From assembly GCA_964016885.1 (NCBI GenBank), contig OZ024747.1, positions 16,926,001 through 16,990,000 on the forward strand: a DNA stretch of 64,000 nt, in the 5' to 3' direction. Position numbers and translations under genes: made by a program. Of this stretch, positions 6,707 to 53,218 are shown in pieces. The stretch's first letter is position 1. Each line of letters opens with the position of its first letter. The notes under the pieces are model-generated. The model was not told where the DNA came from and did not search any database. It saw nothing but the letters and a program-made list of their open reading frames with translations. The stretch comes from Eledone cirrhosa. Its lineage: Eukaryota.

Positions 6707-9174
6707 TGTTCGAACCAACGAGGTGCCACAAGAACGTCCTAGACTTAATTTTCAGCAATCACACTGACAATATCCACAATATTGCAGTGGAGAAAACTCT
6801 ACTCTCTGATCATGACATGGTTCTCTGTGATCCGGAGATTCCACCGTCCAATATACAAATCCAATGCCATCTCTCCTGTCCATCCGTTTGACGCTATGGA
6901 TTTCCACAATGCAAACTGGGAAGCGATCAGTCATGATCTTGCACATGTCGACTGGTCCTTCACGCACACTCATACACCCACTAACATCAAAAAGTCCTGG
7001 CAGACATTTGTGGACACTGTTACAAACATATGTGCAAAACACACCCCATTAAGAACTATAAACAAATCTAAGAGCAGAATCCCTAGAAATAGAAAAACGC
7101 TCATCTGGAAAATTAAGAGAACGAACAAGAAAATCAACAAGCTGAAATACATTCAGCAGCAACACATCAATTTGACTGCCATTTCATCACTAGAGATTAA
7201 AAAACATAACCTCCAAAACAATATGATGTCTATCATCAACAATCAGAGAAGAGCTGAAGAGGCCTGGGCCATTGAGAAGATGATACTCAATCCCAAAGTG
7301 TTCTTTTCATTTGCAAAAAAACACAAAATCACTGGCTCTACTGTTGGCCCTCTAATTGATGAAAATGGCACTCTTCAAGACAATGCTAAAACCATGGGTG
7401 AGATACTGCAGAAACAATACTGCTCTGTTTTCAGCAATCCTGATATGGCCGATCTGGGCTGTATCGGCGATGTTACTCCCCATTACACCTTATCGGACAT
7501 AACGTTCGGCGCCGCTGATGTCTTAGCGGCAATAAAGGAAATCAAGCATAATTCAGCAGTAGGTCCCGATAGGTTCCCTGCTTGTGTCTTGAAGGCGTAT
7601 CAACACCAACTTGCATCTCCTCTTGCCAATCTGTGGCGGAACTGACTGGATGCTGGATATGTGCCAGAAAATCTTCTATCCCAGTCTGTTGTCCCAGTTT
7701 TCAAAAAAGGAAACAAATACCTTGCCGTGAATGACCGTCCAATCTCACTCACCTCTCATATGATTAAGGTATTTGAGAGAGTGGTGAGATCGCGAATGAC
7801 TCACTTCCTTGAGAGTAACAATATGCTGAACTCCAACCAGCATGGATTCCGTAATGGAAGGGATTGCCTGACGCAGCTACTGCATCACTTTGATGACATT
7901 TTGAGAGCCTTGGGAGAGGGTTCCAACACTGATGTTATCTACCTTGATTTCAGCAAGGCCTTTGACAGGGTTGATCACAACATTCTACTGAGAAAGCTGT
8001 CCAATATTGGTGTCACTGGAAAGCTGCTGCAGTGGATCAAGAGCTTCCTGTCAAACAGAACCCAACATGTTGTAGTCGAAGGAGTCAAATCCAGCCCAGC
8101 CAAAGTCAGTAGTGGGGTCCCACAAGGCACTGTGTTGGGCCCACTTCTCTTCATCACTTCATCATCTATATTAATAACATCACTGACATCATCAAACACA
8201 GCGACATTAGAATTTTCGCTGATGATTCCAAGCTCCAAAAGGTCATCGATGGCGTTGATGACCGGATAAGCCTTCAGTCAGACCTACTCGCTGTTACCCA
8301 ATGGGCGGAAAAGAACAACTTGTTACTGAACGAAGACAAATTCGAACTGATCCACTTTGGAAAAGTACTCCCTTCCCTCCGGTGAAACTCTCGTGGCATC
8401 TAACAACATCAGAGACTTGGGAGTAACCGTTGACAGCAACATAAGCTGGGCCACGCATATAAGCAGCAAAGTCGACATGGCCCGCAGAATGTGTTAGTGG
8501 ATCCTCAGAACCTTCCAGTCGAGAGATTCCCACACCATTATCCTTCTCTTCTTTACTTTTGCCCGACCACACCCTGAATACTGTTGTCCACTGTGGTCTC
8601 CCCACACGAAACAAAGTATCATGAAACTTGAAGCTCCCCAAAGGGCAATCACGAAAAAGATAGATGGCATGTCAGACCTTGACTACTGGGGTCTACTAGA
8701 AAAGCTGAAACTTTACTCACTCCAACGTCGCCGTGAGCGTTATATTATCTGCATGATGTGGAAAATGTTTCATCATCACTGCCCAAATGATGTTGGCATC
8801 ACCTTCAAATTACACCCAAGGCTTGGGCCCCATGCTATCCGTCCCAAACAAAAATCTAAATCGCAACTCATAACAACAAAACGGCACAATTATTTCACCT
8901 CAATTGGCCCTGCTCTCTTCAACATCACACCAGGACACGTCAAAACAGAAACTGACGACACAAAATTCAAGAGGTCTTTGGACAAATTCTTCCAAGTAAT
9001 CCCGGACAAACCACCCACACTCGGATATGTCTCCGCAAACAGTAATTCTCTTCTCGAATGGGCCATGGTGCCCAAATCCTGAATTGAAAGACTTCGCCAG
9101 GTGGTGCTATTAAGTTAGACATGGCCTGGGCCAATACTGGCCAAAACATTTCAAAGTTATTCAAAGTTAAGTTA
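6707..9174 (+). mobile_element. 5'-truncated, frameshifted CR1-clade LINE (ORF2: end of APE endonuclease plus reverse transcriptase)
   Basis: [12 protein letters not shown]...SDH (APE end); QHGFRNGRDCLTQLL, DVIYLDFSKAFDRVDH, SGVPQGTVLGPLLF; FADD at 8215-8226 in a shifted frame; YCCPLWSP; LKLYSLQRRRER; short-repeat 3' tail TTCAAAGTTA. Contains stops and frameshifts. Confidence 0.92.
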
Positions 9175-10640: not shown

Positions 10641-11190
10641 TAGAATTGGAGCTCTGAAATAGCAATATATATATGGATGTATATATAATGTATTTTGCAA
10701 TACACTTTATGCTTAATTAAAAGCATTTTGAAGACCATAAGCTATTGTTTTAAAGTAGTGACAAATTCACTTACTTTGATCTCAGCAAACAGGGGAGATA
10801 AGCCGACAAGTCTTGTTTCGCTTTGGTTGAAGCTTATCAAGGCCAACTACCCCTCCTGTCTACCGAGATCATTGATGTTATATTCCTATAGAAATCTAGT
10901 AAATAATCAGGAGCTGATTATGCAGAGCGGTTGTTGGTCAGGCAGAAATTAAAAATTAGAATTGGGTCTCTGATATAGCAATATATATATGGATGTATAT
11001 ATAATGTATTTTGCAATACACTTTATGCTTAATTAAAAGCATTTTGAAGACCGTAAGCTATTGTTTTAAAGTAGTGACAAATTCACTTACTTTGATCTCA
11101 GCAAACAGTGGAGATAAGCCGACAAGTCTTGTTTCGCTTTGGTTGAAGCTTATCAATTTGTCACTACTTTAAAACAATAGCTAAAACATC
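10641..11190 (-). mobile_element. Family G retrozyme-like element: 316-bp unit in ~1.6 tandem copies plus a 28-bp inverted arm (11155-11182)
   Basis: TAGAATTGG begins at 10641 and 10957; HHR begins at 10801 and 11117; 11155-11182 is the reverse complement of AGCTATTGTTTTAAAGTAGTGACAAATT. Confidence 0.88.
10801..10844 (-). ncRNA. Type I hammerhead with U3-A8 core (family G)
   Basis: ggcc TTGATAA gctt-caacca-aagc GAAAC aagactt GTC|ggct; second copy at 11117-11156 is truncated at the core. Confidence 0.78.
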
Positions 11191-11207: not shown

Positions 11208-12077
11208 AGTAATAATAATAAATTTCAAGACTAAAATCCAAAGAGGGCTCGATAAGGATAAATATATATCAAATATATAAGAACCGTAGAGCAAATATTT
11301 ATTAAAATAAGCTCCAAGATTCTAATGAATAGGTCCGAGGATTTTATAACAACTAGAAATTGATTAACATATAAATAAACATATGAAACAATCACAGGGG
11401 ATAATTTTTACAAGTGTATAAGCACACATAGCTAGGTTGGTAACTAAATAAAGTTAACTAGAACTTCAAAAATAGATACCTTATAATATGATTAATCTTC
11501 CATGTATATATTCCATTAAAGAAATATATTTCACCAATTAATCGAATGGTAAACCACGGAGGCCGATACTTGGATTTTCAACAAGGATCTGTGTTTACGC
11601 ATTAAGTTCAAATCAGGACCAATCACGTGCTGTATCTACCAAAAATACACACATCATACCATCATCGTCCCAGTGGCGTGAATAGGGTTATCGACAACTA
11701 GAAACAGCAGTCAACTCCTATTCACGCCACTGGGACGAAGCTGGTATGATGTGTGTATTTTTGGTAGATACGGCACGTGTTACTGGCCAGTCGCATATTT
11801 GAGCTTAATGCGTAAACACAGATCGCTGGACTTCTTCCTTGTTGAAAATCCAAGTATCGGCCTCTGTCGTTTACCATTCGATTAATTGGTGAAATATATT
11901 TCTTTAATGGAAGATTACATGGAAGATTAATCATATTATAAGGTATCTATTTTTGAAGTTCTAGTTAACTTTATTTAGTTACTTACCTAGCTATGTGTGC
12001 TTACACACTTGTAAACATTTTCCCCTGTGATTGTTTCATATGTTTATTTATATGTTAATCAATTTCTAATTGTTATA
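11208..12077. mobile_element. Family E foldback, copy 1: ~340-360 bp arms (11345-11686 / 11717-12077), tail 11208-11344
   Basis: Arms are reverse complements with a few indels; homologous to 52405-53218. Confidence 0.9.
11499..11587 (-). ncRNA. Type I hammerhead with U3-A8 core and long stem III (family E copy 1, left arm)
   Basis: tccttg TTGAAAA t ccaa...ttgg t GAAA tatatttc-tttaat-ggaatata TA|catgga; same core in the right arm at 11842-11848 (+). Confidence 0.7.
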
Positions 12078-12194: not shown

Positions 12195-12422
12195 CATACA
12201 AAGTTTGTTTTATAAATATAGACGTATCCATGAAAATCATACCTTATCGGTTGGAAATTCACTGGGTAGTGGAAATATATTGGGGATTATTCAACCTTAT
12301 GTCTGAATATACTAATGAATATGTAAATAATTGAAAAACAACCGTTTATTTAAATGACACTGGAGAAAGATAGACAAGAAAGAGAGAAAAAATATTAATA
12401 TTACGAGAGAGATAGAGAGGAG

Positions 12423-14066
12423 AAATTAACTAGCAATAGTACCGTTCGGAATAACATCAACTCCGCTAAATGTAACTGTACAATTAAATCAAACTGTCCT
12501 TTAAAAAATAAGTGCTTAGATAAGAACGTGGTCAAAACCAGTGATAATATATTTAACTATATAGGTTCAACTTCTACAGACTTTAAAAGTCGTTGGAATA
12601 ATCACAAATGCTCTTTCAGAAAATTTGATAAAAAATCTTCAGCTTCTCTATCAAACCTGATATGGAACTTAAAATCCAAAAATATGGACTTTTCTTTTAC
12701 TTGGGAAATAATTTCAAAAAAGCACCTGCCTACCGAAACACAGCTTTATCTAGATTTTGCAAATTGTGTGTTGAGGAAATTTTCTTCATACTTAAATGTA
12801 AGAACTCTATTAATGTACGGACGAATTTATTTAGTTCTTGTAAACATCGCCTAAACTCAACGTTTAGAACTATATACAAATTATAATTACCTCTTATAAT
12901 ATTCTACTTATTTCCATAACAATCTTATCCACTCTGTTTTAATATATTGTTATCTCTAAATCATATCTATAATATTTGCTATAATTTCACTTCTTAAAAT
13001 TTCTTAAAATATATACATATATGATCCTAACGTTTAATTTGTTATTTTAACTTTAATTTTAATAATTTTAAAGTTTTTTAATTCTTTATTTTTTATTTTT
13101 TATTTCTTAAATTTTTCATATATTTTAAAAATTACTTATTTTTTTTAAATTACTTATTACTTTTTTAAAAAATTACTTATCTCTTATAAATGATGTTTTT
13201 AAAAATTTTCCTGAATTTTTAATATTTTTTTAATAAATTTTTTTTATATCTTTTATTAGATTTATAACCACTAACTAATTCAGGCTAAATATATATTTAA
13301 CATTTATATATTTAACATTTAAACTTATTTTGACAAAATAGTCTCATACTAACGAATAAATAGACAGAAATTTAGTTTTTTTCTGTATCTTCCCAATTTA
13401 AAATATATAAATATAAATATTCTTATTAACTCAGTTAACTTAATTACTTACATTAAAAATAAACCAATATCCCTCATAACTAATTAAAACAATTATCTAT
13501 AACACGATATACCCATCTATCCATTTATATATCTATTTATCTATCTATCTATTTTTAATATTTATTTTTCTATCTCTCTATTTTTCTATCAATTTATTTT
13601 TCCATATATTTATCCATCTAATTTTATATATATTTATTTTTTTATATATATCTATTTATTTTTCTATCTACTTTTAACAGTAAATATTATATTAAAAAGA
13701 CTTTTAACAACTAAATAATCGTAAATATACGTAACATTAGTAGGTTTGTAATTAAAAATTATTCCCCCATATGAATGTTATAAAAGTATATACTTAGGTG
13801 ATAATCTATACTTGCGTGTGTTTCTATACATCACGCTGGAGCGTTAAGGATAGCTAAGTTCAGTAAGAGATGAAATCCCCTGAAGAGAGAATTCTACTCT
13901 CCAGTATTGATTGCCTTATTTTATTGTAATGACCATAACTGTTTCTTGACACTCGAAATGTCAGCCAAGTAAAAGGTGTGAGTGAAGCTTTCGTTCATGA
14001 GCTACCTATGTAAGTTTGCGTAAATTATTCTATATGCATATGAATAAATATATATACCTCCACCCC
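12423..14066 (+). mobile_element. 5'-truncated Penelope-like retroelement (EN, long AT-rich UTR, putative pLTR end with degenerate HHR 13880-13962)
   Basis: EN fragment followed by AT-rich UTR and CTGAAGA gag...ctc GAAA t GTC, ending in a TA tract. The 3' boundary and the HHR are uncertain. Confidence 0.55.
12441..12886 (+). pseudogene. Penelope-like element C-terminal GIY-YIG endonuclease fragment (frameshifted)
   Basis: CNC.IKSNCPLKNKCL..NVV...YIGST..FK.RW.NHK.SF...LS.LIW.LK...WEI, then in a shifted frame C.LC.EE...N.R...SCKH. The CxCx5Cx5C linker suggests a Naiad-like group (tentative). The first Tyr motif appears deleted. Confidence 0.85.
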
Positions 14067-52404: not shown

Positions 52405-53218
52405 TATATCAACTAGAAATTGATTGACATATATAAATATATATATTTAAAATAAACACATGAAACAATCACAGGGGATAATTTGTACAGTGTGTAAGTA
52501 CTAGGTAGGTAACTAATTAAAGTTTAACTAGAACTTCAAATATTACCTTTTAAAAATGATTAATCTTCCTTGTATATATTTCATTAAAAAATATATTTCA
52601 CCAATTAATCCGTAAACTCACAGTAGTTAAATCGTATCTTCATCAAGGAGAAGATTCAACTATGTGCGTTTACACATTAAATGCAAATCTGCGAATGACG
52701 GGTCGCACGTGGTTCATCCCTAAAACTACACACATCGTGCCAGCTTCATCCCAGTGGCGTGAATAGGGTTATTGACAGCTAGAAATAGCAGCCGAATCCT
52801 TTCAATTAAGGGAGTCATGTCCGAGACATGCGCCATATTAGCATTTCATGTGTAAACGCAGATAGTTGAATCTTCTCCTTGCTGAAGATTCGGTTTTGAC
52901 TACTGTGAGTTTACGGATTAATTGGTGAAATATATTTCTTTAATGAAATATATGAAAGGAAGATTGACCATTTTTAAAAGGTAATATTTGAAGTTATAGT
53001 TAACCTTTAATTATTTACCTACCTAGCTATGTGTGCTTACACACTGTACAAATTATCCCCTCTGATTGTTTCATGCGTTTATTTTAAATATATATATATA
53101 TGTCAATCAATTTCTAGTTGATATAAAATGCTCGGATCATTGGACTATTTGAGCTTATTCTACGGTGCATATCGCGCATGTCTCGGACATGACTCCCTTA
53201 ATTTAACTAAATTTTGGA
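52405..53218. mobile_element. Family E foldback copy 2, tail on the right (53126-53203)
   Basis: Homologous to 11345-12077; HHR core CTGAAGA at 52882-52888; each arm carries a different core or cleavage-site mutation. Confidence 0.88.

What the first reader, a model, noticed from the sequence alone, without database searches (positions are those of the whole stretch)
11499..11925. Within-family C3-G8 to U3-A8 switch in family E
Seen: the homologous HHR reads ccttg-CTGAAGA-t in copy 2 (52877-52889) but ccttg-TTGAAAA-t in both arms of copy 1; within the core only positions 3 and 8 differ. Presence in both arms implies the variant was already in the RNA template. This is the most direct covariation evidence that the fold is real.
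Basis: partly seen in the sequence, partly recalled or inferred. Interest (0 to 1): 0.7.

Follow-up and report, generated by a model that had tools for sequence, protein, structure and literature searches.

The report
Hammerhead core pair flipped, then reverted
A common jumping repeat in this animal genome carries a hammerhead (self-cutting RNA) motif whose core C-G pair reads U-A in most copies, and its family tree indicates that the pair likely flipped to U-A and later back to C-G, which would mean selection keeps the cutting shape; the U-A variant itself is already known and cutting is untested.

Summary
The swap is real and family-wide. Family E is a ~550-nt non-coding tandem repeat with one type I hammerhead per unit, inserted as Penelope-style head-to-head pairs: a likely non-LTR retrozyme. 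Exact matches with the same flanks: U3-A8 1125, C3-G8 125, U3.G8 13, C3.A8 13. The 26 mismatched copies are about what decay predicts (~30). Stem I shows further compensatory changes. With positions 3 and 8 masked, trees put copy 2's C-G group inside U-A groups, while an older C-G subfamily lies outside. So the pair likely changed twice: C-G to U-A, then back. A single switch is rejected with the two sites masked (AU p 0.0002) but not with them included (p 0.09). U3-A8 is published (2011; Schistosoma Penelope elements, 2014), and this scan has noted it, and two-armed retrozymes, on other DNA of this genome. I found no report of a reversal. Stem II is weak, there is no Rfam hit, and cleavage is untested.

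The parts
11303..11724 (-). Copy 1, left arm: 5'-truncated part of the ~550-570-nt monomer, 3' end pointing outward (subfamily 1a)
   Evidence: 91-92% to natural dimer L109; falls in the 1a clade
11717..12077 (+). Copy 1, right arm, head-to-head with the left arm; ends at the commonest 3' end site (unit position ~157)
11496..11587 (-). Type I hammerhead, U3-A8 core (11581-11575), GAA 11532-11530, 9-bp stem III, predicted cut after 11505; upper stem I lost to a 13-nt deletion, one stem I mismatch
11833..11926 (+). Type I hammerhead, U3-A8 core (11842-11848), GAA 11891-11893; 3' strand of stem III damaged, same stem I mismatch as in the left arm
52405..52810 (-). Copy 2, left arm (subfamily 2a)
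   Evidence: 90-91% to L033/L035
52821..53232 (+). Copy 2, right arm; ends at the distal 3' end site (unit position ~274-279); a short inverted piece lies at 52801-52838
52873..52963 (+). Type I hammerhead, C3-G8 core (52882-52888), GAA 52927-52929; residues 17 and 1.1 at the cut site and 10.2 are mutated
52564..52652 (-). Type I hammerhead with a broken core: A3 opposite G8 (52643-52637); one base lost from stem III/loop

Best explanation
Family E is a ~550-nt non-coding repeat with one type I hammerhead motif per unit, likely a non-LTR retrozyme copied by a Penelope-type reverse transcriptase, in which the core 3-8 pair likely changed twice by compensatory double substitution (C-G to U-A, then back to C-G in copy 2's lineage) because only templates that keep the pair would self-cleave and spread. 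Shown: the unit, the motif, the state counts, the stem covariation, the insertion geometry and the trees. Inferred: transcription of tandem source copies, self-cleavage after UA to unit length, circularisation, priming at three TA-rich sites of the RNA on both ends of a DNA break, and selection on cleavage. The window arms are decayed insertions.
For: Motif: 9-bp stem I, core YUGANRA, short stem II opened by U.U, GAA, 9-bp stem III, UA cut site. On 61 distinct rows, 95.6% of cells pair; 40 cells change on both sides (shuffles 13.4; 0 of 500 reach it; partners slid by 1-3 columns give 2-14). The 3-8 pair is U-A 38, C-G 19, U.G 2, other 2; three stem I pairs change on both sides in 8, 7 and 3 rows. 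On the 16-consensus tree, positions 3 and 8 change twice each, position 7 four times, and the other 14 core and junction positions never, while 48% of 333 other columns vary. The sister groups at the second switch differ robustly at only 3 of 446 columns, two of them positions 3 and 8 (chance about 3e-5 for 3 differences, 1.6e-4 for 6). Five derived characters on both sides of the core unite the 2t/2a C-G groups with U-A groups, against the C-G bridge copies (L314, L328), the basal U-A group and 1d. Single switch rejected with 3/8 masked: AU p 0.0125 (consensuses), 0.00017 (71 copies). Subfamily 4 (C-G) is the most diverged, 4.6-6.3% against 1.8-4.2%. Geometry: 38 of 58 subfamily-1 loci are head-to-head pairs; 88 of 103 segment 3' ends fall at three sites; 26 of 103 exceed one unit.
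Against: With positions 3 and 8 left in, the single-switch tree is not rejected (AU p 0.090), and branches near both switches are short. Stem II is weak: pairing probability 0.000-0.29, and the hammerhead fold lies 1.1-8.1 kcal/mol above the minimum in 7 consensuses. The usual G10.1-C11.1 pair is U.U. No Rfam hammerhead hit (none among the 150 of 249 rows listed). Insert ends are not enriched at the cut site (5' ends 2 of 103, expected 3.8). The oldest subfamily mostly has C at position 4 (56 of 84 matches, counted by eye), a change reported to lower activity. Neighbouring non-core stretches are also conserved (invariant runs of 19-23 nt elsewhere in the unit). The shuffle control ignores relatedness. 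Only 1 of 9 predicted Xenopus retrozyme dimers cleaved in vitro (10.64898/2026.07.22.740005). No link to a coding Penelope element was found.
Confidence: 0.68

Rival explanations
1. One origin of U3-A8; the C-G of subfamilies 2t/2a was brought back by template switching or gene conversion from an older C-G copy, not by new mutation.
For: Arms of one insertion can belong to different subgroups (L091: 1a U-A and 1c U.G), so mixing of templates is possible; older C-G copies were in the genome.
Against: The tract would include position 7 and stem I position 2.4. Sampled C-G donors have U or C at 7 and U at 2.4; 2t/2a have A and C like their U-A neighbours. No C-G match with the basal loop was seen among the 100 of 125 listed, nor a bridging subfamily in 7 matches with N7 not A.
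Confidence: 0.1
2. A single switch, C-G to U-A, with 2t/2a keeping the ancestral state; the nesting is a tree artefact.
For: Not rejected when positions 3 and 8 are included (AU p 0.090); internal branches are short and several sites are homoplastic.
Against: It needs five or six reversals, two of them indels, against two extra changes; rejected when masked; the 2t/2a groups (2.7-3.8%) are not older than the U-A groups (3.9-4.2%) that they would have to precede.
Confidence: 0.12
3. The motif is a degenerate hammerhead that no longer cleaves; the changes at 3 and 8 hitch-hiked by chance in successful source copies, or the stretch is kept for protein binding or priming.
For: Weak stem II, U.U at 10.1-11.1, competing hairpins that bury the GAA, U4C in subfamily 4, no end enrichment at the cut site, inserts run through the cut site.
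Against: Both sites change together on two separate short branches and at no other point of the consensus tree; no mismatched subfamily exists; stem changes keep pairing. The 3-8 pair is a feature of the active hammerhead core (PMC3088659).
Confidence: 0.08
4. A fold-back DNA transposon (MITE) with long inverted ends and a chance hammerhead-like word.
For: Both window copies are palindromic.
Against: The arms are variable 5'-truncated pieces of a circularly permuted tandem unit, up to two units long, with three alternative outer ends.
Confidence: 0.02

Closest known systems
Metazoan non-LTR retrozymes (Cervera & de la Pena 2020, PMC7229834, passages and section 14 read; Li, Clavereau & Pollet 2026, 10.64898/2026.07.22.740005, parts 1-3 of 5 read)
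   Same: Non-coding, low-GC tandem unit with one type I hammerhead per unit; monomers and dimers dispersed through the genome; Penelope-type remnants in the same genome.
   Different: Unit 546-571 nt (invertebrate circles ~170-400 nt in the 2020 paper; families of 51-972 bp in the 2026 preprint); stable 9-bp stem III instead of a short palindromic one; U.U at 10.1-11.1; mostly U3-A8; circular RNA and cleavage not shown here.
U3-A8 hammerheads of Schistosoma mansoni Cercyon Penelope-like elements (Cervera & de la Pena 2014, PMC4209133, parts 1-2 of 4 read)
   Same: The same core covariation, found by homology within a Penelope-related family; about 1,300 hits there, at least 1125 here; dual motifs on opposite strands 100-700 bp apart.
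   Different: Those are minimal, dimer-type motifs with a long helix II and G10.1-C11.1. The parts read give no tree, no count of intermediates and no reversal.
Natural hammerhead core variants (Perreault et al. 2011, PMC3088659, passages read)
   Same: C3-G8 to U3-A8 covariation in nature, a natural U10.1-U11.1 mismatch and the viroid U4C variant are all described.
   Different: Scattered examples; the passages read do not trace successive switches in one lineage.
Penelope-like element insertion structure (Craig et al. 2021, PMC8557442, passages read)
   Same: 5' truncation, partial tandems, an inverted 5'-truncated copy at the 5' end, microsatellite bias.
   Different: No ORF in the unit; the autonomous partner is not identified.

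Membership tests
Type I hammerhead ribozyme | Three helices around the core, helix I open | tested here: met
   Stems I and III form unconstrained and keep pairing across subfamilies; stem II is only 2-4 bp plus U.U and weak in the ensemble
Type I hammerhead ribozyme | Core C3 U4 G5 A6 N7 G8 A9 ... G12 A13 A14, with 3-8 paired | tested here: met
   3-8 always C-G or U-A at subfamily level, N7 free, the rest fixed in 16 consensuses; exception: C4 in most subfamily 4 matches
Type I hammerhead ribozyme | A15.1-U16.1 pair and H17 at the cut site | tested here: met
   A-U in 61 of 61 rows; A17 in all consensuses
Type I hammerhead ribozyme | Usual G10.1-C11.1 closing pair (common, not obligatory) | tested here: not met
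   U.U in all 16 consensuses; a known natural exception (PMC3088659)
Type I hammerhead ribozyme | Match to an Rfam hammerhead model | tested here: not met
   No hammerhead among 5 and 4 hits at E<=10 on the two decayed window copies; intact copies were not scanned
Type I hammerhead ribozyme | Site-specific self-cleavage | not testable with these tools
   Needs an assay; insert ends give no support
Non-LTR retrozyme | Tandem non-coding unit with one type I hammerhead per unit | tested here: met
   546-571-nt units, dimers in L078, L084, L100, L109; coding potential judged only from the closed tandem unit, not by an ORF scan
Non-LTR retrozyme | Highly self-paired unit RNA | tested here: inconclusive
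   Two natural units folded as circles: 63-64% paired, z -2.0 and -4.5 on 30 shuffles
Non-LTR retrozyme | Expressed as circular RNA | not testable with these tools
   No RNA data; 26 of 103 segments longer than one unit fit a circle or an uncut multimer
Penelope-mobilised element | Inverted 5'-truncated copy, partial tandems, (TA)n targets | tested here: met
Penelope-mobilised element | Homology to the pLTR of a coding element | tested here: inconclusive
   11 tblastn hits of one GIY-YIG remnant in 363 loci, none in a fixed position to the unit; only one weak query was tried

The most novel reading that the evidence does not exclude
Within one animal retrozyme lineage the catalytic-core pair 3-8 of the hammerhead went C-G to U-A and later back to C-G by two fresh compensatory double substitutions, with no mismatched lineage ever expanding. 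This is a genomic fossil series showing that the active ribozyme shape is under selection for the spread of Penelope-dependent elements, and it supplies natural near-isogenic pairs for assay.
Probability: 0.65. Interest if true: 0.58.

Novelty: new member of a known kind. Interest (0 to 1): 0.45.

Why it matters
Whether hammerheads in Penelope-type elements do anything is open: Craig et al. 2021 (PMC8557442) call their function unclear and suggest they may be parasites, and only 1 of 9 Xenopus retrozyme dimers cleaved in vitro. Two coupled changes at the core pair, each on a branch with few other changes, are sequence evidence that the active fold matters for propagation. The sister groups that differ at three sites make a clean assay. 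The variant itself is not new, so the value is for ribozyme and retroelement specialists.

Tried and rejected
Rfam scans gave no hammerhead. The repeat finder was swamped by TA repeats. Sequencing runs: no RNA holder listed; no reads were laid. A stem III pattern found 0 matches in metagenome contigs. Insert ends as evidence of cleavage: rejected; L078 ends at the cut site, but that site is a TA run and there is no enrichment. U3.G8 as the stepping stone: 7 of 13 U.G matches sit in subgroup 1c, on three haplotypes, twice in both copies of an insertion; but 1c is far from either switch and the total is within decay expectation, so it stays a lead. C3.A8 as the stepping stone of the first switch (L334, L111): single copies, not separable from decay. 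Dating the direction from ages within subfamily 2: groups overlap. One search used wrong offsets for the 3' half of the core and was redone. The first IQ-TREE run timed out. Literature searches that found no report of a reversal; scan notes. Not held, so unseen: Lunse 2017, Przybilski & Hammann 2007, Ambros & Flores 1998. Supplements of all papers were not read and may hold further core variants.

Full report
Observation. The words cited are there: CTGAAGA at 52882-52888 (+) and TTGAAAA at 11842-11848 (+) and 11581-11575 (-), each after CCTTG. The two copies are 70.7% identical; the arms of copy 1 are 87.6% and those of copy 2 81.6% identical to each other. All four arms carry damage in the motif, and their local folds are unremarkable (z -0.6 to -2.1). 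Rfam gave no hammerhead (none in the 150 of 249 rows shown).

What the element is. The window lies in a 3.0-Gb assembly. Genome copies show a tandem unit of 546-571 nt with one motif per unit. Of 58 distinct subfamily-1 loci, 38 are head-to-head pairs with both 3' ends outward. Of 103 segments, 88 end at one of three TA-rich sites, 5' ends are scattered, and 26 run longer than one unit. This is the insertion structure described for Penelope-like elements (PMC8557442, passages), on a unit like that of non-LTR retrozymes (PMC7229834; 10.64898/2026.07.22.740005). Mobilisation by a Penelope enzyme from a circular or multimeric RNA is inferred. GIY-YIG remnants occur near some copies but in no fixed position.

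The fold. The motif reads as type I: stem I of 9 bp, core YUGANRA, U.U then 2-4 pairs of stem II with a long variable loop, GAA, a 9-bp stem III with a 6-nt loop, and UA before the 3' strand of stem I. I aligned 64 copies, the 4 nearest to each of 16 group consensuses (of 398). In 61 distinct rows, 95.6% of cells pair, against 31-58% when partners are slid. Stem I has pairs changed on both sides in 8, 7, 3 and 1 rows; one of these is a C.A mismatch in 24 rows. The common stem III changes are A to G opposite U. An 11-copy subgroup has a further U-A to C-G change in stem I. RNAalifold recovers stems I and III but not stem II. In 7 consensuses stem II has pairing probability 0.000-0.29, and the hammerhead fold is 1.1-8.1 kcal/mol above the minimum. 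That is the weakest part.

The 3-8 states. With identical flanks, exact matches number 1125 U-A, 125 C-G, 13 U.G and 13 C.A. These are lower bounds and exclude subfamilies 3 and 4. Background decay rates from 295 copies predict about 3, 5, 13 and 9 mismatched copies for the four routes; 4, 7, 9 and 6 were seen (approximate). So no mismatched lineage expanded, and U3-A8 is the majority state, not a local oddity. A further 82 U-A matches have the short spacing of copy 2's subfamily, so the switch does not coincide with the split between the window's two copies.

History. An anchor outside the motif exposed two more subfamilies. Subfamily 3 is U3-A8 with position 7 as U, C or G. Subfamily 4 is C3-G8, the most diverged (4.6-6.3% against 1.8-4.2%), with a compensated stem I. 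Bridge copies (L344, L314, L328) join the subfamily 4 stem I and C-G core to the loop of the basal U-A group. With positions 3 and 8 masked, the tree of 16 consensuses and of 97 of 398 copies run: subfamily 4, bridges, then a clade that is U-A at its base (SH-aLRT 91.6). One arm of that clade leads to copy 1's group and subfamily 3, all U-A. The other leads through U-A groups to the C-G groups 2t and 2a, which hold copy 2. Forcing all C-G copies into one clade is rejected on consensuses (AU p 0.0125) and on 71 copies (30 C-G, 41 U-A; mismatched rows and most subfamily 1 and 3 rows left out) with the sites masked (p 0.00017), but not with them included (p 0.090). Five derived characters, two of them indels, on both sides of the core tie 2t/2a to U-A groups. 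At the second switch the sister groups (19 U-A, 11 C-G copies) differ robustly at one upstream site and at 3 and 8; two more columns are polymorphic. At the first switch about a dozen columns differ, with only 3 bridge copies for comparison. Two coupled changes are needed wherever the root lies; the reading 'there and back' rests on subfamily 4 being oldest. Grouping of copies was by motif rules and nearest consensus, and sampling favoured chosen states, so group sizes are not genome proportions.

How it likely works. Source copies are transcribed through two motifs, cleave after the UA to unit length and may circularise (inferred from the known retrozyme cycle). A Penelope-type enzyme would prime on TA-rich sites at both ends of a break and copy through the junction (inferred from the ends). 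Inserted copies then decay neutrally (shown by rates and damage). A source lineage that breaks the 3-8 pair would cleave poorly and leave few copies until the partner changes (inferred). Which intermediate was used is not resolved.

Results against. The unmasked AU test, the weak stem II, the U.U closing pair, C at position 4 in 56 of 84 matches of the subfamily 4 pattern (by eye; the 4a consensus came from 21 BLAST-picked copies and shows U), no end enrichment at the cut site, and the poor in vitro record of predicted retrozymes (1 of 9, 10.64898/2026.07.22.740005).

Novelty. U3-A8 in nature, U10.1-U11.1 and U4C are in Perreault 2011 (PMC3088659, passages). About 1,300 U3-A8 motifs related to Schistosoma Cercyon elements are in Cervera & de la Pena 2014 (PMC4209133). 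Earlier notes of this scan report the same swap and two-armed retrozymes elsewhere in this genome; none matched this sequence or a reversal. Searches found no paper that traces a switch and its reversal in one family; three relevant papers were not held. Verdict: a real, well-supported example of a known variant in a new member of a known kind of element, with one likely new point, the double switch. Interest 0.45.

Noticed in passing
window 10800-10846 (-), core at 10840; partial second copy 11117-11157: A different repeat with a compact type I hammerhead, also U3-A8 (UUGAUAA), with a GC-closed stem II and a UC cut site (second copy seen).
   Followed up: no
window 12190 (-) and 12399-12851 (+): A minimal-type hammerhead (CUGAUGA, palindromic stem III) next to a GIY-YIG remnant (Pfam PF01541, E 5.6e-5), just right of copy 1.
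   Followed up: partly
window 3217 (-), 3358 (+), 62941 (-): Another hammerhead family (CUGAUGA/CUGACGA) as an inverted pair and a single copy.
   Followed up: no
subfamily 4, e.g. L315, L318, L325: Most matches of the oldest subfamily have core CCGAUGA (U4C): 56 of 84 have C4 and 49 read CCGATGA, counted by eye. The variant is described from a viroid in PMC3088659.
   Followed up: partly
L091, L092, L093, L096, L100: 7 of the 13 U3.G8 matches lie in subgroup 1c, twice in both copies of one insertion, so wobble-pair templates were probably copied at least once.
   Followed up: partly
L091:524-1741; L111: Insertions whose two motif copies belong to different subgroups (1a and 1c in L091; basal 2b and 1d in L111): two templates or nested insertions.
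   Followed up: no
L334:1311-1736: One copy with the old stem I, position 7 = A and C3.A8 on the bridge background; it could be a fossil intermediate of the first switch, or decay.
   Followed up: partly
L078:1327-2909: Both arms end exactly at the predicted cut site, one arm is two units long, and about 150 bp of flank are also inverted.
   Followed up: partly
window 6749-9082 (+): Broken reading frames that look like a LINE-type reverse transcriptase (label from recall, not scanned).
   Followed up: no
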